Of a DNA stretch of 39,741 bases, positions 1 through 39,741 are shown piece after piece. The stretch lies in IMG/VR virus record IMGVR_UViG_2778261267_000002, one strand, 5' to 3'. The notes beneath the pieces are model-generated. The model did no database searches. It saw only the letters and a list, made by a program, of their open reading frames with translations, and was not told the DNA's origin. A program made the position numbers and the translations under genes. Origin of the DNA: a virus. Its lineage: Duplodnaviria; Heunggongvirae; Uroviricota; Caudoviricetes. Position 1 is the stretch's first letter; every line of letters starts with the position of its first letter.

Positions 1-1248
1 ATGGCACTGAATATTCCATTCAGAAATGCGTACTATCGTTTTGCATCCAGTTACTCATTTCTCTTTTTTATTTCCTGGTCGCTGTGGTGGTCGTTATACG
101 CTATTTGGCTGAAAGGACATCTAGGGTTGACAGGGACGGAATTAGGTACACTTTATTCGGTCAACCAGTTTACCAGCATTCTATTTATGATGTTCTACGG
201 CATCGTTCAGGATAAACTCGGTCTGAAGAAACCGCTCATCTGGTGTATGAGTTTTATCCTGGTCTTGACCGGACCGTTTATGATTTACGTTTATGAACCG
301 TTACTGCAAAGCAATTTTTCTGTAGGTCTAATTCTGGGTGCGCTCTTTTTTGGCCTGGGGTATCTGGCGGGATGCGGTTTGCTTGACAGCTTCACCGAAA
401 AAATGGCGCGAAATTTTCATTTCGAATATGGAACAGCGCGCGCCTGGGGATCTTTTGGCTATGCTATTGGCGCGTTCTTTGCCGGCATATTCTTTAGTAT
501 CAGTCCCCATATCAACTTCTGGTTGGTCTCGCTATTTGGTGCTGTATTTATGATGATCAACATGCGTTTTAAAGACCAGGATCACCAGTGCGTAGCGGCG
601 GATGCGGGAGGGGTAAAAAAAGAGGATTTTATCGCAGTTTTCAAGGATCGAAACTTCTGGGTTTTCGTCATATTTATTGTGGGGACGTGGTCTTTCTATA
701 ACATTTTTGATCAACAACTTTTTCCTGTCTTTTATGCAGGTTTATTCGAATCACACGATGTAGGAACGCGCCTGTATGGTTATCTCAACTCATTCCAGGT
801 GGTACTCGAAGCGCTGTGCATGGCGATTATTCCGTTCTTTGTGAATCGGGTAGGGCCAAAAAATGCATTACTTATCGGTGTTGTGATTATGGCGTTGCGT
901 ATCCTTTCCTGCGCGCTGTTCGTTAACCCCTGGATTATTTCATTAGTGAAGCTGTTACATGCCATTGAGGTTCCACTTTGTGTCATATCCGTCTTCAAAT
1001 ACAGCGTGGCAAACTTTGATAAGCGCCTGTCGTCGACGATCTTTCTGATTGGTTTTCAAATTGCCAGTTCGCTTGGGATTGTGCTGCTTTCAACGCCGAC
1101 TGGGATACTCTTTGACCACGCAGGCTACCAGACAGTTTTCTTCGCAATTTCGGGTATTGTCTGCCTGATGTTGCTATTTGGCATTTTCTTCCTGAGTAAA
1201 AAACGCGAGCAAATAGTTATGGAAACGCCTGTACCTTCAGCAATATAG
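1..1248 (+). CDS. cscB: Sucrose:H+ symporter, LacY-family (oligosaccharide:H+ symporter) MFS permease; host gene flanking the prophage
   Basis: 415-aa ORF, polytopic hydrophobic profile, collinear similarity to LacY/CscB recalled from memory (e.g. GLKKPLIW, FEYGTARAWGSFGYA motifs); typical ~50% GC. Confidence 0.8.
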   Translation: MALNIPFRNAYYRFASSYSFLFFISWSLWWSLYAIWLKGHLGLTGTELGTLYSVNQFTSILFMMFYGIVQDKLGLKKPLIWCMSFILVLTGPFMIYVYEPLLQSNFSVGLILGALFFGLGYLAGCGLLDSFTEKMARNFHFEYGTARAWGSFGYAIGAFFAGIFFSISPHINFWLVSLFGAVFMMINMRFKDQDHQCVAADAGGVKKEDFIAVFKDRNFWVFVIFIVGTWSFYNIFDQQLFPVFYAGLFESHDVGTRLYGYLNSFQVVLEALCMAIIPFFVNRVGPKNALLIGVVIMALRILSCALFVNPWIISLVKLLHAIEVPLCVISVFKYSVANFDKRLSSTIFLIGFQIASSLGIVLLSTPTGILFDHAGYQTVFFAISGIVCLMLLFGIFFLSKKREQIVMETPVPSAI

Positions 1249-7005: not shown

Positions 7006-7476
7006 CTAATAAAATACCCAATTTTCTGTTTCTTGGTTGTGTCCAAAGTTATATTCAATATCTGGTGTTGATGTATCAATATTCTTCATCCCATCAACAA
7101 GAGTTGATACAACAGCCAAATCTTGTTTGATTCTCATTAAATGGTATTTCTTCCGGCGCAATAAACTTTCAATGGCAAGTTTCTTCGTTGGGAATGCAAA
7201 AGATCTTTCTGCATTTTTTGCTACTTTCTTAATTGCATATCTATTTTTCCTTTGTTTCCATTCCTGTAACCACTGATTTGGTGCTGGTTTAAAATTAACA
7301 ATCCAATGCGCAGGAACCAACCATGCATAATGCTCTGTCTGATGAAAAGATATATATTGAAGTGCGAATATTTTTATCCCATCTTCTTCAACTGTCGCCT
7401 GGAATCTCCAGAAAACAGGCATTCCATCATGTTCAGTTTCTGATTCAGGAAAAGGTACGCTCCATGATTTTGTCAT
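7006..7476 (-). CDS. Hypothetical protein, AT-rich accessory gene downstream of N (156 aa)
   Basis: ORF in a ~33% GC island, preceded by a GAGGTGAG ribosome-binding site; no recognised motifs. Confidence 0.55.
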   Translation of the reverse strand: MTKSWSVPFPESETEHDGMPVFWRFQATVEEDGIKIFALQYISFHQTEHYAWLVPAHWIVNFKPAPNQWLQEWKQRKNRYAIKKVAKNAERSFAFPTKKLAIESLLRRKKYHLMRIKQDLAVVSTLVDGMKNIDTSTPDIEYNFGHNQETENWVFY

Positions 7477-7530
7477 ATCTCACCTCAAATAAGTGGTTTG
7501 CTGCGAAAGTAAATACGCTTAAGTTACCTG

Positions 7531-7668
7531 TTATTTATCCCACCAAGTTCCGTATCTATCTATCCAGTTACACCAATCATCGACATTCCATTTTGCTGTG
7601 TCGCATTTTGGCAATTGGCATGAATATCTACCTTCTTTGTAAAGTCGGCGTTTGACTTTCTTGAGCAT
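7531..7668 (-). CDS. Small Cys/Trp-rich hypothetical protein (45 aa)
   Basis: MLKKVKRRLYKEGRYSCQLPKCDTAKWNVDDWCNWIDRYGTWWDK; immediately downstream of N and upstream of the 156-aa ORF. Confidence 0.3.
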   Translation of the reverse strand: MLKKVKRRLYKEGRYSCQLPKCDTAKWNVDDWCNWIDRYGTWWDK

Positions 7669-7676
7669 GGCTCACC

Positions 7677-8009
7677 TCAATCGTAATAAGCTGGAATTGA
7701 TTTTCCGCGTTGCTTCTGGCGGCCTGAGCAAGTCACACCCATTTCACTGCGTGGCTTGCTGTACCATGTGCGCTGATTCTTGCGCTCAATACGCTGCAGG
7801 TTGCTTTCAATCTGTTCGTGGTATTCAGCCAGCACCGTAAGGTCTATCGGATTCAGTGCGCTTTCTACTCGTGATTTCGGTTTGCGATTCAGCGAGAGAA
7901 TAGGGCGGTTAACTGGTTTTGCGCTTACCCCAACCAACAGGGGATTTGCTGCTTTCCATTGAGCCTGTTTCTCTGCGCGACGTTCGCGGCGGCGTGCTTG
8001 TGCATCCAT
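7677..8009 (-). CDS. N: Antitermination protein N (lambda N)
   Basis: MDAQARRRERRAEKQAQWKAANPLLVGVSAKPVNRPILSLNRKPKSRVESALNPIDLTVLAEYH... near-identical to lambda N including the arginine-rich RNA-binding motif. Confidence 0.9.
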   Translation of the reverse strand: MDAQARRRERRAEKQAQWKAANPLLVGVSAKPVNRPILSLNRKPKSRVESALNPIDLTVLAEYHEQIESNLQRIERKNQRTWYSKPRSEMGVTCSGRQKQRGKSIPAYYD

Positions 8010-34732: not shown

Positions 34733-36838
34733 ATGACAGACATTACAGCCAATGTTGTAGTGAGTATGCCTTCGCAACTCTTCACTATGGCGCGTTCTTT
34801 TAAAGCCGTAGCCAATGGCAAAATTTATATCGGTAAAATTGATGCTGACCCGGTAAATCCTGAAAACCAGATTCAGGTTTATGTAGAGAACGAAGACGGA
34901 TCTCACATTCCTGTTTCGCAACCAATCATTATCAATTCTGCTGGTTACCCTGTATATAACGGACAGATTGCCAAGTTTGTTACGGTGCAAGGTCATTCTA
35001 TGGCTGTTTATGATGCGTATGGTGCACAGCAGTTCTATTTTCCAAACGTGCTGAAGTATGATCCTGATCAGCTAAGGCAGAGTCTAACAAAATATGGCTC
35101 AACAATTGATCAGATAGCGCATCGGGCGACAGCCATTAAAACATTTGAAGAGTTTGGGGCAATTGGTGATGGGATTGTTGACGACACCACATCTATGTTA
35201 TCAGCATTAGCATGGCTCGAAGGAATACCTTTTGGTAAATTAACAGGGAGAGTAGGTGCGAGATATCGCATAACACAAAGTCTTGTAATGAAGTTCGATG
35301 GCTCGTATACACAGGATGTTACATCTACACGGTATATTGATTTTACTGGTACAACAATCGTAGCAGGAGACTCGGGAATTACATGTTTAAGAATGAGCCA
35401 TGATTTCTGCCACATAATCAATCCTGTAGTAATTAACCCAGATAACTACTCTGACGTTATTGCCTACGCCATTGCTCCTGAAGACGAATCTCAGGCAACC
35501 ATGCGTGTGTCACAGCAATTTTGTGTAATGGAGAATCCACGCGCAAGGGGAGTAAAAGTCGGACTGAAATTCAAGCCGGGACCAACAGTATCAGGTGAAA
35601 ACAGCGGCTCATACTACCACTCAATTATGAACCCTAACTTTGAGCGTGTAGACTGCGGGTTTTATTTTGAACGCAGCGTCAGTGGCGATAATAATAATAC
35701 GCGCATCCATATATATAACCCTCATCATGCTACGGGAAATTGTAGCTTTTGGATTGAGTCTACCGACACTTTGCGCGTATTTGGTGGTCACGCTGAGAAT
35801 ATCACTCTAGGTACTTGGCCTGCAGACGTGCCATGCGCAGTGCGTATTGTTAAGACGGTGAACAGTGATACATCAGTGGCAGGTAATATACACTTCCGTG
35901 GATTTTTTGGCGAGTTGTGTACGCGTCCGTATCAGATTGATTTTAATGTGAAAACCTATGAAAACCACTTTGACTGGTCATGGGTGTATCTAACTGAGAA
36001 CGCACAGCGTCAAGGTGCTAACAGTTATGAAAGCATATCCCAGTTTGACGGGGTTCTTGTTAGCTCAAATATGGACCCAGACCAGAAAAACGTTACTGGA
36101 TGCCGTAGGCGTTCTAGTGGTAAAGGGGCGCTTATTATTCAGCCTGACGACTCATCTCCGGCCGAGCTTTATTCTGACACAAAATGGAAAATTACCTCAT
36201 CTGTACTAGAGGCTCCTGTTCAGGACTTACGCAACGATAATAGTGAAATACAGATTCTTGGTGCCACTAATTCAGGTATCCTGCTCACTACGACTACTGG
36301 TACAAAGGGGGTAACATTATCGAGTTATGACGGTAAATTGTCACCAGGAAACCCAAGCGGCGACTTTAAGATTGGCGGGTACAATGGATTCATGCCTGAT
36401 GCAGACAATACGACTGTATTAGGATATACATCACATAGATGGTCTGTTGTGTATGCTGCCACGGGCACAATAAGCACATCGGATGAAACACTGAAGGTAA
36501 AAACCCCGGCAACAAACGAGAGTGCGGAAAGGGAAGCGGCTAATGAAATTCGCAAGAATATTATTCGTTATAAGTTTGCTGATGCCATAGAACTTAAGGG
36601 AGAAGAGTCTGCACGTGTCCACTTTGGTGTTGGTGCGCAAACTGTTGGTTCTATCCTGACAAAGCACGGACTTAAACCAGAGGATTACGCATTCTGGTGC
36701 AAGGACGAGTGGGAAGAATCTTCTGAAATAAGCATTAATCCAGAAACGTTAGAAGAAGTTGTAACAGTTAAACCAGCGGGCGTAAGGTACGGAATACGCT
36801 ATGATGAGCTTATTATGTTCTTAGCAATGTATGCGTAA
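34733..36838 (+). CDS. Tailspike: P22-like N-terminal head-binding domain, distinct receptor-binding domain, C-terminal intramolecular chaperone (peptidase S74-like) domain
   Basis: First ~110 aa [58 protein letters not shown] match P22 gp9; C-terminus has SDETLK and [13 protein letters not shown] / [15 protein letters not shown] motifs. Confidence 0.85.
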
Positions 36839-36859
36839 ATTGCATAGTTATGGCGTTAC

Positions 36860-38002
36860 ATGTACAATGCTGCAAATTTTTTTGGGGTTATTAACATGAA
36901 CGCCTTTTTGCTTTTTATTGCAGTAATTGGTGTAATTATAGATTTAGCATCTCCGTTGACAGTTTATGGTGTACAACTATTCCTATTTCCATTCGCATGC
37001 CTTTTTTTATACGCAAAAAGTGTAAGTAAAATGACGTATCAGTCATTATTATTTATAATAATGGTGGTATCTATTGTTATAATAAGTTCATTTATCCAAG
37101 TTTATATATCAAAGCATAATGAGATATTATTATCACAGACGCTTAAAGTAATAATTTGGGTGGTGTCGTCATACTTGTTATATGTTGGATGTAAGGGGGT
37201 GGATAAAGATACTTTAGAGAGATCCATAAATGCAGCGCTAGTAGTTTTCATGCTCTCTTTATTTATTCAAGTAGTATCGAAGCTTTTATTTGGTTCTATT
37301 GTTGACTACTCTATGCTAATTGGTGGCGAACCATCAAGAAATATGATGACTGGAGTTGGGTTTAGGCCAACAGGGCTAACTGCAGAACCAAGTGTATATT
37401 GCGGAATAACAGCGTGGTTAATTACGTTACGATATGCAATTAATAAAAAGATTGATTATTTGTTTTTACTGTCATGCGTTTCAATGACGTTTACATTGTC
37501 ATTTGTTGGAATATTTCTTTGCTTTCTCATGCTATGTGTTGGTATGATGAGAATTAAGATGATTATCCCAGTGATAGCAATATTTGTGATTGGGTATCTT
37601 TCTGTTTTAAATATTGTAAATGACAGGATTGTTTTATTTCTATCTGGGGCTGATGGTAGCAATAATATAAAGATAGAGACCATTCTTGATTTTATTGGAA
37701 ATCAAAATTTATATATTTTTGGTTATGGTTTGATTGGTAAGTCAGAATCTGCGCCATCATTTTATGAGTCGTTATATGATATGACTATATTTGGAAACTT
37801 TATTACAATATTTGGTCTTCCATTTGGAGTATTATGCATAGTATTATATTGTGTTTTTATAATTAAAATTAAAATAACAAAAAGGGCAAAGCTAATGATG
37901 TTGCTATCATCTTTAAAAATTAGCCTGCCGTTTTTTGCTGTGTTTTATATGGCTATTGCTATGATATGTGCAATTTCAAATAAGAACAAAGCGTTAACGT
38001 AA
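36860..38002 (+). CDS. AT-rich polytopic inner-membrane protein (~10 TM), possible Wzy-like polysaccharide polymerase / O-antigen modification protein (alternative start 36896)
   Basis: Highly hydrophobic 380-aa ORF at ~30% GC with a hydrophilic loop containing R and G residues; sits in the tailspike-int slot. Confidence 0.6.
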   Translation: MYNAANFFGVINMNAFLLFIAVIGVIIDLASPLTVYGVQLFLFPFACLFLYAKSVSKMTYQSLLFIIMVVSIVIISSFIQVYISKHNEILLSQTLKVIIWVVSSYLLYVGCKGVDKDTLERSINAALVVFMLSLFIQVVSKLLFGSIVDYSMLIGGEPSRNMMTGVGFRPTGLTAEPSVYCGITAWLITLRYAINKKIDYLFLLSCVSMTFTLSFVGIFLCFLMLCVGMMRIKMIIPVIAIFVIGYLSVLNIVNDRIVLFLSGADGSNNIKIETILDFIGNQNLYIFGYGLIGKSESAPSFYESLYDMTIFGNFITIFGLPFGVLCIVLYCVFIIKIKITKRAKLMMLLSSLKISLPFFAVFYMAIAMICAISNKNKALT

Positions 38003-38302
38003 CAACTTGCACATAATAATATCTCTTTTTTTAGTTTCTGGTGATTGTATTGTTATACTATAATCACCAGAATAAAACTCAGTTAAAGTGAATTTTTCTT
38101 TATCAATAGATATATAATCAAGAGAACGAGCCTCGTTAAAAAATTCTTTTTCAAGGCTAAATTCTACATCATCTAGATGCACTTTGGACGCATTTGATGT
38201 GTTAACTTTAACAAGATGAGAACCACATACTATTTCATTTATCTTTGCGCTTGATGAATTACTAACCATAAAGGTAAGTATAAAAAACAAGTATTTAAAC
38301 AT
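37994..38302 (-). CDS. Small secreted protein (102 aa, signal peptide), AT-rich
   Basis: N-terminus MFKYLFFILTFMVSNSSSA; convergent with the membrane protein gene, overlapping by 9 nt. Confidence 0.45.
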   Translation of the reverse strand: MFKYLFFILTFMVSNSSSAKINEIVCGSHLVKVNTSNASKVHLDDVEFSLEKEFFNEARSLDYISIDKEKFTLTEFYSGDYSITIQSPETKKRDIIMCKLLR

Positions 38303-38583
38303 ATATCACCATCTTTGAAAAATATTCTACAAATAGTAGCATGAACATCATGCTAATTAAAGAAAGATTGCAAAACCATTTGCCATTTGTCAAGCACTTA
38401 GGTGATAAATGTATGGGGTTGTGATGTTTATATTTTAGTAAGTTCGTGATCATATAATTATTTACATGTAATGATATGTACCACATCAGGTGGTAGTATT
38501 TGTATCCACTTGAGGCAAAACTGAGAAACGCAAAGCTTTGTACTGGATTGCAAGGCTTTATGTCATTCGATAGTTAAGGTGGA

Positions 38584-39741
38584 TCACTCCACCTTCCCAT
38601 CAAGCCAGTCCGCCCACCACTGCATCATTTCTCTGCGCTTATCGAGATACTGAGCATGGTTGTAAATCCCGCGCACAGATCCGCCGTTGGCATGTGCCAG
38701 TTGCACCTCAATCGCGTCAGCAGGCCATTCGTGCTCGTTCATAATCGTGCTGAATTCATGCCTGAATCCGTGACCGCTTTCCAGACCTTCATAGCCGATT
38801 TGTTTGATCACAAGTAATACCGCGTTCTCGCAGATTGGCTTCTTCTTATCGTTGCGCCCGGCAAAAACAAACTCTGACACTGGTTTAGTGATTGAGCTTA
38901 GCGTAGTGAGAAGTTCAACCACCTGGTCTGACATAGGAACCACATGAATTTTGCGACCCTTCATCACACTGGCGTCGATGGTGATAATCCTGTTTTCAAA
39001 ATCGACGTTCTTCCATTGCATGGAACGAAGCTCTTTTGTTCTTAGGGCTGTGTAGCGTAAAACCTTGGTGGCAATGAGCGATACGATACTTCCTGAAAAT
39101 GTTGCCAGTGCTTTGTTGAATGCCGGGATCTGGTCTGCAGGAAGAAACGGGAAGTTCTTCTTGCGGTATCCCTTCATGGCGTCAGCAAGATCAGGTGCCG
39201 GGTTATATTTAGCCCTTCCGGTGACAATAGCGTAACGGAAAACCTCGCCGCATCTTCTGCGGGCTTTGTTGGCTCGCTCCATTGCACCGCGATCTTCAAA
39301 TCTGCGGATTACTTCCAGCAGTTGCATCGGCTCAATATCCTGAATTTCAAGACCGCCGATGATGGGTAAAATGTCGTCATCAAACATTTTGGCAAGTTCA
39401 GTTGCATAGCCTACTGACCAGACTTGCTTCTTGTGCTCGTACCATTCCTTGTAAATGGCACTAAAGGAATTGTTGTTAGACGAAGCCTTTTTCGCTTTTA
39501 CCGGATCGATGCCAACCGAGATGTCTTTCCTCGCGGTCCATGCTTTATCTCTTGCCTCCTGCAAAGTCATTAGCGGATATTTTCCTACGGTCAGGATTTT
39601 CTCCTTACCGTCAATCTTGTAGCGAAGCTGCCATACCTTTTTCCCTGACACAGGGACATAAAGGTACAGGCCATTACCATCGAGAAGGCGGTATGGTTTC
39701 TCTTTCGGCTTTGCTGCTTCAATCTGCTTAACGGTGAGCAT
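38584..39741 (-). CDS. intS: Tyrosine integrase, P4/IntS type (385 aa); start codon is the last three bases of the window
   Basis: Full-length ORF with tyrosine-recombinase catalytic signature (R...H-x-x-R...Y); matches KplE1/CPS-53 IntS as recalled. Confidence 0.85.
   Translation of the reverse strand: MLTVKQIEAAKPKEKPYRLLDGNGLYLYVPVSGKKVWQLRYKIDGKEKILTVGKYPLMTLQEARDKAWTARKDISVGIDPVKAKKASSNNNSFSAIYKEWYEHKKQVWSVGYATELAKMFDDDILPIIGGLEIQDIEPMQLLEVIRRFEDRGAMERANKARRRCGEVFRYAIVTGRAKYNPAPDLADAMKGYRKKNFPFLPADQIPAFNKALATFSGSIVSLIATKVLRYTALRTKELRSMQWKNVDFENRIITIDASVMKGRKIHVVPMSDQVVELLTTLSSITKPVSEFVFAGRNDKKKPICENAVLLVIKQIGYEGLESGHGFRHEFSTIMNEHEWPADAIEVQLAHANGGSVRGIYNHAQYLDKRREMMQWWADWLDGKVE

What the first reader, a model, noticed from the sequence alone, without database searches (positions are those of the whole stretch)
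36860..38486. AT-rich membrane-protein plus secreted-protein module between tailspike and integrase
In P22-like and KplE1-type prophages the tailspike-to-int slot carries surface-modification genes (gtrABC, oac). Here it holds a ~30% GC, 380-aa polytopic membrane protein with no gtr or acyltransferase-3 signature, and a convergent 102-aa protein with a signal peptide. That suggests an uncharacterised surface-polysaccharide modification or exclusion module, possibly a Wzy-like polymerase with a partner.
Basis: partly seen in the sequence, partly recalled or inferred. Interest (0 to 1): 0.65.

Follow-up and report, generated by a model that had tools for sequence, protein, structure and literature searches.

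The report
Prophage-borne O-antigen polymerase with secreted partner
Between the tailspike and integrase genes, this E. coli prophage carries an unannotated O-antigen polymerase (Wzy) and a small secreted partner protein; intact copies are found only in O166-type strains, they probably re-link the host's surface sugar chain, and a related copy appears to be the long-missing polymerase of Salmonella bongori O66.

The parts
36850..38550 (.). Low-GC island (0.27-0.35) that holds the cassette
   Evidence: Composition profile. Flanking phage genes are 0.41-0.56 GC.
36896..38002 (+). wzy-like gene: 368-aa polytopic inner-membrane protein, predicted O-antigen polymerase. The longest ORF starts at 36860 (380 aa).
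37292..37387 (+). Codes for predicted periplasmic loop PL3 (residues 133-164). It carries D137, G144, R148, R157, G160, E164 and P165; R157, E164 and P165 are invariant in 106 relatives.
37619..37786 (+). Codes for predicted periplasmic loop PL5 (residues 242-297). It carries R244, D253, S255, G276, G278 and D295. The Wzy_C matches of relatives map to residues 190-278.
37994..38302 (-). Partner gene: 102-aa protein with a cleavable signal peptide (coded by 38246-38302), giving a ~83-aa periplasmic protein with two conserved cysteines (C26, C98). It is convergent with wzy and overlaps it by 9 nt.
   Evidence: A 36%-identical homolog (E 2e-18) has the same arrangement in a myovirus-type element, L025. 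Only 2 clusters exist among 5.8 billion proteins.
38303..38583 (.). Intergenic region between the partner gene and int. It contains the 63-aa ORF (38295-38486, minus strand), which is probably not a gene. It presumably holds the partner's promoter.
   Evidence: No family match. Not annotated in RefSeq. No homolog in L025. Hairpins listed.
34733..36838 (+). P22-type tailspike. The body (residues ~114-700, nt ~35072-36838) travels with the cassette across phage types.
   Evidence: Head_binding 5e-66. 80% identical to the tailspike of the O166:H15 prophage. 66-72% identical over the body to the L025 tailspike, which has a different N-terminal adaptor.
38584..39741 (-). IntS-type tyrosine integrase. 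In public genomes it lies next to tRNA-Arg argW.

Best explanation
This is a serotype-conversion cassette of a P22-like prophage integrated at argW. The 368-aa protein is a Wzy-type O-antigen polymerase of a family that no curated model covers. It sits in the inner membrane: 12 TM segments, both termini cytoplasmic, and two periplasmic loops carrying the conserved Arg/Asp/Glu residues. It takes undecaprenyl-diphosphate-linked O units of the O166 type, made and flipped by the host's own cluster, and joins them into polymer. It belongs to a different Wzy class from the resident O166 polymerase, so it most likely makes a different linkage between units. The lysogen's O antigen would then stop being a good receptor or substrate for the phage's own tailspike, giving superinfection exclusion and antigenic change, as in Salmonella phage epsilon15 and Pseudomonas phage D3. 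The 102-aa protein is exported to the periplasm and is a dedicated partner. Most likely it suppresses or outcompetes the resident polymerase or chain-length machinery. Once the resident wzy is lost, the phage copy becomes essential and is kept while the prophage decays. S. bongori O66 looks like the end point of that process. SHOWN: the anatomy, the fold class, family contexts, the O166 association, the conserved partner and tailspike linkage, and the decayed resident wzy in S. bongori. INFERRED: polymerase activity on O166 units, the changed linkage, the exclusion phenotype and the partner's inhibitory role.
Against: The window protein itself matches no Pfam, NCBIfam or PHROG family and no PDB sequence. 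The Foldseek E-values are weak (0.037). The closest solved fold is a ligase (WaaL), not a polymerase. The AF2 model is poor (pLDDT below 50) for residues 136-163, which is the conserved PL3 loop. The Arg...Gly spacing differs from the RX10G and RX15G motifs described for other Wzy proteins. Three of the four carriers keep an intact resident wzy, and those strains are still called O166, so any change may be partial or serologically silent. The association test is not phylogenetically corrected and rests on four genomes. The MLI104K1 frameshift could be an assembly error. The partner is a soluble periplasmic protein with no similarity to the epsilon15 inhibitor, so its inhibitor role rests only on analogy and on where it is present or absent. 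No lysogen-active promoter could be identified. That O66 and O166 differ in the inter-unit linkage is my recollection of Liu et al. 2010; that paper is not held and I only saw its title.
Confidence: 0.7

Rival explanations
1. The membrane protein is a member of the WaaL/SEDS-like superfamily but not an O-antigen polymerase. It could be an alternative ligase, or an enzyme acting on another lipid-linked glycan such as ECA, colanic acid or capsule.
For: The best structural match is the ligase WaaL. Pfam Wzy_C covers both ligases and polymerases. There is no direct activity data.
Against: Homologs occupy the wzy slot of four wzx-type clusters that have no other polymerase candidate. Intact copies occur only in O166 strains. 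S. bongori has lost its cluster wzy and keeps a homolog. In Enterobacteriaceae waaL lies in the core (waa) cluster (established knowledge).
Confidence: 0.08
2. The Wzy is real, but the 102-aa protein has nothing to do with polymerisation. It could be an independent periplasmic superinfection-exclusion factor or a fitness/virulence factor that merely shares the accessory-gene slot.
For: It has no similarity to known polymerase inhibitors, which are small membrane peptides: D3 Iap is 31 aa (PMC12004945) and epsilon15 gp22 is 66 aa with two TM domains. It is transcribed convergently, not as an operon with wzy. It has no family and no usable structure.
Against: The pair keeps the same convergent, overlapping arrangement at 58% and 36% identity in two unrelated phage backbones. 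The partner is found nowhere else among 5.8 billion proteins. It is missing wherever the Wzy homolog is the cell's only polymerase.
Confidence: 0.25
3. The partner is a helper of the phage Wzy rather than an inhibitor of the resident enzyme. It could be a periplasmic co-factor, a chain-length modulator or a stabiliser.
For: It is strictly linked with the phage-borne Wzy. Wzy enzymes are known to work with periplasmic-domain partners such as Wzz (PMC12004945).
Against: The S. bongori homolog and the cluster-borne homologs have no such partner, so the enzyme family does not generally need one.
Confidence: 0.15
4. The cassette is functionally silent cargo in O166 strains. On this view it is redundant with the resident Wzy, and its association with O166 only reflects the tailspike's host range.
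For: Three carriers keep an intact resident wzy and are still typed or annotated as O166. The tailspike body co-travels with the cassette, so host range alone would produce an O166 association.
Against: The wzy ORF is intact in all four O166 carriers, including two prophage remnants where IS elements removed nearly everything else. It has decayed in the O92 strain. The resident wzy has been lost in S. bongori and apparently in MLI104K1.
Confidence: 0.12

Closest known systems
Salmonella phage epsilon15 conversion genes: gp21 (beta-polymerase, Wzy_C/O-antigen ligase family) plus gp22 (alpha-polymerase inhibitor)
   Same: A wzy gene and a small second gene lie immediately downstream of the tailspike gene. 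The polymerase families are distantly homologous (hhalign probability 86%). In both cases the phage polymerase is of a different class from the resident one. The expected outcome is also the same: a changed inter-unit linkage that blocks the phage's own tailspike (PMC3715488).
   Different: There is no BLAST-level similarity. The window protein itself does not reach Pfam Wzy_C. The small protein here is a 102-aa secreted, soluble, two-cysteine protein, whereas gp22 is a 66-aa two-TM peptide; the two are unrelated. The two genes are convergent here and co-directional in epsilon15. No anti-acetylation genes are seen here.
Pseudomonas phage D3 / serotype O16 conversion unit: Iap plus Wzy-beta
   Same: It is a phage-acquired polymerase that replaces the linkage made by the resident Wzy-alpha. 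Both have two large periplasmic loops with essential Arg residues, at almost the same positions: 142-178 and 242-301 in D3 Wzy-beta against 133-164 and 242-297 here (PMC4815439).
   Different: Iap is a 31-aa membrane peptide that mimics Wzz TM2 (PMC12004945); the partner here is periplasmic and soluble. The host genus and the phage type differ. D3 Wzy-beta has an essential His in its Wzy_C loop, whereas this family has no conserved His there.
Sf6 oac and P22 gtrABC: the seroconversion slot of P22-like phages at the tailspike/int junction
   Same: Same genomic slot and, for Sf6 and CPS-53, the same attachment site argW (Kapi1 paper PMC8787464). All are low-GC accessory cargo.
   Different: The chemistry differs: polymerisation of O units rather than O-acetylation or glucosylation. 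There is no Acyl_transf_3 or Gtr signature.
Salmonella rfc (wzy of groups A, B1, D1) outside the O-antigen cluster, with a wzy remnant left in the cluster
   Same: The evolutionary pattern matches what is seen here for S. bongori O66: a polymerase gained at an outside locus, and the cluster's own wzy reduced to a remnant (PMC3715488).
   Different: The locus and the protein family differ. Here the donor can be traced to a phage cassette that is still circulating in E. coli.

Membership tests
Wzy O-antigen polymerases (functional class; WaaL/SEDS-like fold) | Polytopic inner-membrane protein of about 10-14 TM segments with cytoplasmic termini | tested here: met
   The AF2 helices and hydropathy give 12 TM segments. 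There are 13 K/R in 45 cytoplasmic-loop residues against 6 in 108 periplasmic-loop residues. This is a prediction only.
Wzy O-antigen polymerases (functional class; WaaL/SEDS-like fold) | Two large periplasmic loops carrying conserved, functionally essential Arg residues (RXnG motifs) | tested here: met
   PL3 (133-164) has R148 (92% conserved), R157 (100%) and G160 (98%). PL5 (242-297) has R244 (89%) and G251. The spacing is RX11G / RX2G / RX6G, not the published RX10G or RX15G. Whether these residues are essential was not tested.
Wzy O-antigen polymerases (functional class; WaaL/SEDS-like fold) | Fold shared with WaaL and the SEDS polymerases | tested here: met
Wzy O-antigen polymerases (functional class; WaaL/SEDS-like fold) | Encoded with wzx and glycosyltransferases as the only polymerase candidate of a Wzx/Wzy-dependent cluster | tested here: met
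   Met for the 32-35% homologs P0012-P0015. The window copy itself is phage-borne, outside any cluster.
Wzy O-antigen polymerases (functional class; WaaL/SEDS-like fold) | Polymerase activity: loss gives semi-rough LPS with a single O unit | not testable with these tools
   This needs genetics and LPS gels.
Pfam PF04932 Wzy_C (O-antigen ligase-like) | Score above the Pfam gathering threshold (31.7 bits) | tested here: not met
   The window protein has no hit even at E <= 1. 14 of 106 profile-found relatives do hit (best 2.3e-10), mapping to window residues 190-278. Homology is therefore transitive only, and I do not file the protein as a Pfam member.
epsilon15/D3-type conversion unit (phage Wzy + inhibitor of the resident Wzy) | Phage-borne polymerase of a different class from the resident polymerase of the host it is found in | tested here: met
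   There is no BLASTP or hhalign relation to the resident O166 Wzy. All intact copies are in O166 hosts.
epsilon15/D3-type conversion unit (phage Wzy + inhibitor of the resident Wzy) | A small hydrophobic membrane peptide that inhibits the resident polymerase (Iap, gp22) | tested here: not met
   The partner has a cleavable signal peptide and an ~83-aa hydrophilic mature part. hhalign to epsilon15 gp22 gives probability 0.3%. Its function is untested.
epsilon15/D3-type conversion unit (phage Wzy + inhibitor of the resident Wzy) | The lysogen shows a changed inter-unit linkage and resists adsorption of the converting phage | not testable with these tools
   This needs NMR or LPS profiling and adsorption assays.
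GtrABC glucosylation / Acyl_transf_3 O-acetylation modules | GtrA/GtrB/GtrC or Acyl_transf_3 (PF01757) domains | tested here: not met
   No such Pfam, NCBIfam or PHROG hits for any ORF of the module.
WaaL O-antigen ligase | Encoded in the waa core cluster, with a conserved catalytic His in the large periplasmic loop | tested here: not met
   The gene is phage-borne and its homologs sit in O-antigen clusters. No His is conserved in PL5; the conserved residues there are R244, D253, S255, G276 and D295.

The most novel reading that the evidence does not exclude
Tailspike body, Wzy and secreted partner form one mobile 'recognise-then-rewrite the receptor' unit that moves between podoviruses and myoviruses of several enterobacterial genera. 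On this reading the partner is a new, periplasmic, protein-type inhibitor (or re-director) of a resident Wzy/Wzz machinery, mechanistically unlike the membrane-peptide inhibitors Iap and gp22. Domestication of this cassette, with loss of the partner and of the resident wzy, is what created the Salmonella bongori O66 antigen from an O166-like ancestor. That would identify the O66 polymerase that was proposed, but (as far as I recall) not identified, in 2010.
Probability: 0.3. Interest if true: 0.75.

Novelty: new variant of a known kind. Interest (0 to 1): 0.6.

Why it matters
Serotype conversion by a phage polymerase is textbook biology, but it rests on very few systems (epsilon15, D3). I found none described for E. 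coli P22-like phages in the held literature or in the phage records searched. This cassette matters for four reasons. First, it gives a name and a testable function to a protein family that every curated library misses and that RefSeq calls 'hypothetical' in every E. coli copy listed (several hundred contigs). Second, it predicts hidden O-antigen heterogeneity within serogroup O166, which includes ETEC and outbreak-associated O166:H15 strains. That is relevant to serotyping, vaccines and phage therapy. Third, it offers a concrete candidate for the missing polymerase of Salmonella O66, and a stepwise series showing how a phage gene can replace a chromosomal one. Fourth, it supplies a small secreted protein that may be a new way to control Wzy or Wzz. 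That is of interest because Wzy inhibitors are sought and the only known lead is the Iap peptide.

Tried and rejected
DIRECT FAMILY SEARCHES. Pfam, NCBIfam, PHROGs and PADLOC gave nothing for either protein. PDB sequence searches with profiles A1 and A2 gave nothing relevant.

STRUCTURE SEARCHES. Foldseek against viral structures (BFVD) gave only noise, E > 0.8. The afdb50 library was not available. The AF2 model of the 102-aa partner from a single sequence had pLDDT 38 and was unusable, so I did no fold search on it.

COLLECTION SCANS. tblastn of both proteins against 50,697 phage records found no match. The genome-contig scan with the O166 GT2 protein missed S. bongori and returned only irrelevant metagenome-assembled genomes. 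I reached the S. bongori cluster through its GT4 ortholog instead.

WZY_C MATCHERS. A first guess that the partial-match relatives were the Wzy_C hitters was wrong. A second batch of ten gave two weak Wzy_C matches, P0082 and P0098.

KAPI1. This argW P22-like phage modifies the O antigen, but its slot genes are unrelated and were not shown to be responsible.

REJECTED READINGS. The resident O166 Wzy is not a paralog of the phage protein. The 63-aa ORF 38295-38486 is rejected as a gene: it has no support beyond DNA conservation. The MLI104K2 copy is not an exception to O166 specificity: it has no intact ORFs and lies in a wzm/wzt O92 strain.

PAPERS NOT HELD. Liu et al. 2010 and Kropinski et al. 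2007 could not be read.

PROMOTERS. The promoter scan found no more sites than in shuffled sequence.

Full report
OBSERVATION. The coordinates are accurate. ORF 36860..38002 (+, 380 aa), ORF 37994..38302 (-, 102 aa) and a 63-aa ORF at 38295..38486 (-) are all present. They lie in a sharply bounded low-GC island: 0.27-0.35 from about 36750 to 38550, against 0.41-0.56 around it. On the left is a P22-type tailspike (34733..36838; Pfam Head_binding 5e-66). On the right is an IntS-type integrase (38584..39741). The rest of the window is a mosaic P22-like lambdoid prophage, closest to phages HZ41, IME10 and HK633. Its left end is a host LacY-family permease gene. In public genomes the same DNA lies at tRNA-Arg argW next to yfdC. 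That is the site of CPS-53/KplE1 and Sf6, and the tailspike-to-int slot is where related phages keep their O-antigen modification genes (PMC8787464). The true start of the membrane-protein gene is most likely ATG 36896 (368 aa). RefSeq uses this start in two genomes, all homologs share it, GGGG lies 9-12 nt upstream, and variation in the length of an upstream T-run explains the 380- and 390-aa calls.

THE MEMBRANE PROTEIN. No curated library recognises it: Pfam, NCBIfam, PHROGs and PADLOC give nothing, nor do PDB sequences. The word-indexed search of 5.8 billion proteins found only 15 clusters. An exhaustive HMMER profile search found 507 representatives at E <= 0.001. Five independent lines identify it as a Wzy-type polymerase.

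(ii) Topology. A 12-TM model with both termini inside obeys the positive-inside rule. Almost all residues conserved across 106 relatives fall in two large periplasmic loops. PL3 (133-164) carries D137, R148, R157, G160, E164 and P165. PL5 (242-297) carries R244, D253, S255, G276 and D295. Two periplasmic loops with essential arginines are the hallmark of Wzy. The loop positions nearly coincide with those mapped experimentally in phage D3 Wzy-beta (PMC4815439).

(iii) Transitive family membership. 14 of 106 relatives match Pfam Wzy_C (best 2.3e-10). Two such matches, in P0082 and P0098, map onto window residues 190-278.

(iv) Profile homology. hhalign against the epsilon15 beta-polymerase gp21 gives probability 86%, E 5e-6, over 271 columns.

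(v) Gene context. Four distinct 32-35% homologs sit between wzx and glycosyltransferase genes as the only other polytopic membrane protein. One of these loci is a complete cpxA-to-secB O-antigen locus.

HOST SPECIFICITY. Only 5 of 5,426 complete E. coli genomes carry the module. I located the O-antigen cluster of the O166:H15 carrier and searched with its wzx-wzy DNA; 18 genomes have it. All four genomes with intact module copies are among those 18: OZ197100, E7476, MLI104K1 and JNE21-009 (Fisher P 8.5e-11, not corrected for phylogeny). The fifth copy, in MLI104K2, has no intact ORF. It sits in a strain with an O92 wzm/wzt (ABC-transporter) cluster, where a Wzy has no substrate. The carriers span both O166 cluster alleles, two tailspike alleles that are 80% identical and three prophage states: complete, IS1-truncated and IS3-truncated. 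So the association arose at least twice. The resident O166 Wzy is unrelated to the phage protein by BLASTP and by hhalign. A lysogen therefore holds two polymerases of different classes, as in the D3 and epsilon15 systems.

THE SALMONELLA LINK. A 58%-identical homolog (P0006) lies in S. bongori on an IS3-flanked island with an integrase fragment, 1.8 kb from an Acyl_transf_3 gene. It is the only member that any source calls 'O-antigen polymerase'; every E. coli copy listed is 'hypothetical protein'. The S. bongori O-antigen cluster has the O166 gene order: wzx, GT2, [slot], GT4, GT4, GT4, galE. Its GT4 is 61% identical to the O166 one. The wzy slot, however, is an 874-bp, 26% GC stretch with no gene. 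That stretch still contains three decayed fragments of an O166-type wzy (best E 3e-11). This agrees with my recollection of Liu et al. 2010. I saw only that paper's title because it is not held. As I recall it, the Salmonella O66 cluster lacks wzy, its O antigen differs from O166 in one linkage (probably the one between O units) and in O-acetylation, and a wzy elsewhere in the genome was postulated. The island protein is the obvious candidate for it. Salmonella group B1 shows the same pattern: a remnant of the cluster wzy remains after wzy was gained at the outside rfc locus (PMC3715488). E. coli may show an intermediate stage. In MLI104K1 the resident wzy has a 1-nt deletion, not in a homopolymer, that truncates it at residue 250 of 357. 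The phage wzy there is intact, inside a prophage remnant reduced to tailspike, wzy, partner and int. This could still be an assembly error. The resident wzy is intact in the other three carriers.

THE PARTNER. The 102-aa protein has a good Shine-Dalgarno sequence, a short hydrophobic N-terminus and an S-S-A cleavage site. Only two clusters exist in 5.8 billion proteins, and it has no family. Its single-sequence AF2 model is useless. It is nevertheless a real, linked gene. A different element, L025, carries baseplate genes 94.6% identical to Hafnia myophage Meifeng. It holds a 58% Wzy homolog directly downstream of its tailspike gene. That homolog is followed by a convergent, 3'-overlapping 103-aa gene whose product is 36% identical to the partner (E 2e-18), with an A-N-A signal-peptide site and both cysteines conserved. 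The L025 tailspike has a different N-terminal adaptor (Tail_spike_N instead of Head_binding). Its body is nevertheless 66-72% identical to the tailspikes of the E. coli carriers. Tailspike body, wzy and partner therefore move together between phage types. No partner homolog is present in the S. bongori island or in the O-antigen-cluster loci. So the partner accompanies the Wzy only when the Wzy arrives by phage in a cell that already has a polymerase. That pattern is why I favour an inhibitor or competitor role, by analogy with epsilon15. There a wzy and a 66-aa two-TM 'alpha polymerase inhibitor' also follow the tailspike gene. D3 Iap is a further analogue. The partner, however, is soluble and periplasmic, and unrelated to gp22. 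Its role is inference, and I put it at about 0.3-0.35.

ALLELES. The E. coli copies form two allele types, the window type and a P0005 type that is closer to S. bongori. Recombinants between them have breakpoints inside the gene (P0002, P0004). One contig (L024) combines the window's tailspike (99.9%) and partner (97%) with the P0004 recombinant.

COMPARISON AND NOVELTY. Functionally this is an epsilon15/D3-type conversion unit in the Sf6/P22 seroconversion slot. It is not a detectable member of Pfam Wzy_C. It has no match in 50,697 phage records or in viral structure predictions. Its second component is of a different kind from the known inhibitors. I therefore rate it a new variant of a known kind. 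Confidence that the membrane protein is a Wzy-type polymerase is about 0.85. Confidence that it converts O166-type O antigen is about 0.6. Confidence in the whole account is about 0.7.

Noticed in passing
window 1-1248 (+): A 415-aa LacY-family sugar/proton symporter (Pfam LacY_symp 1.9e-193) lies at the left end of the window. It is host flank, not phage. Its size and position near argW/dsdA resemble the sucrose permease CscB; that resemblance is from memory and was not tested.
   Followed up: partly
window 36700-36822; L025 4216-5157: The last ~120 nt of the tailspike gene are 92-93% identical to tail-fibre genes of large lytic phages (PhaxI, Salmonella phage 38, SS3, SS9). Part of the L025 tailspike is 79% identical to phage 38 tail-fibre genes. 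The C-terminal Peptidase_S74 chaperone region seems to be exchanged between temperate and lytic phages.
   Followed up: no
window 36840-36895: Variation in the length of a T-run upstream of the wzy start shifts the upstream frame. Gene callers therefore produce 380-aa or 390-aa versions, the latter starting inside the end of the tailspike gene. RefSeq annotates the 100%-identical copy in OZ197100 as only 267 aa.
   Followed up: yes
Proteins P0002, P0004, P0005 (alignment A1); locus L024: The wzy alleles are mosaic. P0002 is P0005-like in its N-terminal half and window-like in its C-terminal half. P0004 switches at about residue 300. This means recombination inside the gene between two allele types, possibly reflecting different linkage or host specificities.
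   Followed up: partly
L004/L005 10946-12004 (S. bongori island): An Acyl_transf_3 gene (7.5e-28) lies 1.8 kb from the Wzy homolog, on the same IS-flanked island as an integrase fragment. It is a candidate for the O-acetylation that (from memory) distinguishes O66 from O166.
   Followed up: partly
L015 (E. coli MLI104K2) 7200-7970: The decayed or error-ridden copy of the module contains the region upstream of the partner gene twice: the 63-aa ORF matches at 7967-7779 and at 7710-7522. This is a tandem duplication or an assembly artefact. The sister isolate MLI104K1 has the same IS1-truncated remnant but a different O-antigen cluster (O166 against O92), which implies an O-antigen switch on a shared backbone.
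   Followed up: partly
L027 2445-3517 (E. coli MLI104K1 resident wzy): A single-C deletion in ACTTTCGGC truncates the resident O166 Wzy at residue 250 of 357, in a strain that keeps the phage wzy intact. It is either real pseudogenisation or a sequencing error.
   Followed up: partly
window 38337-38355 and 38479-38495: Two hairpins with T-rich tails lie in the partner-int intergenic region. The second is a near-perfect palindrome, TACCACATCAGGTGGTA. Their function is unknown: a terminator for int or for wzy read-through, or a protein-binding site.
   Followed up: no
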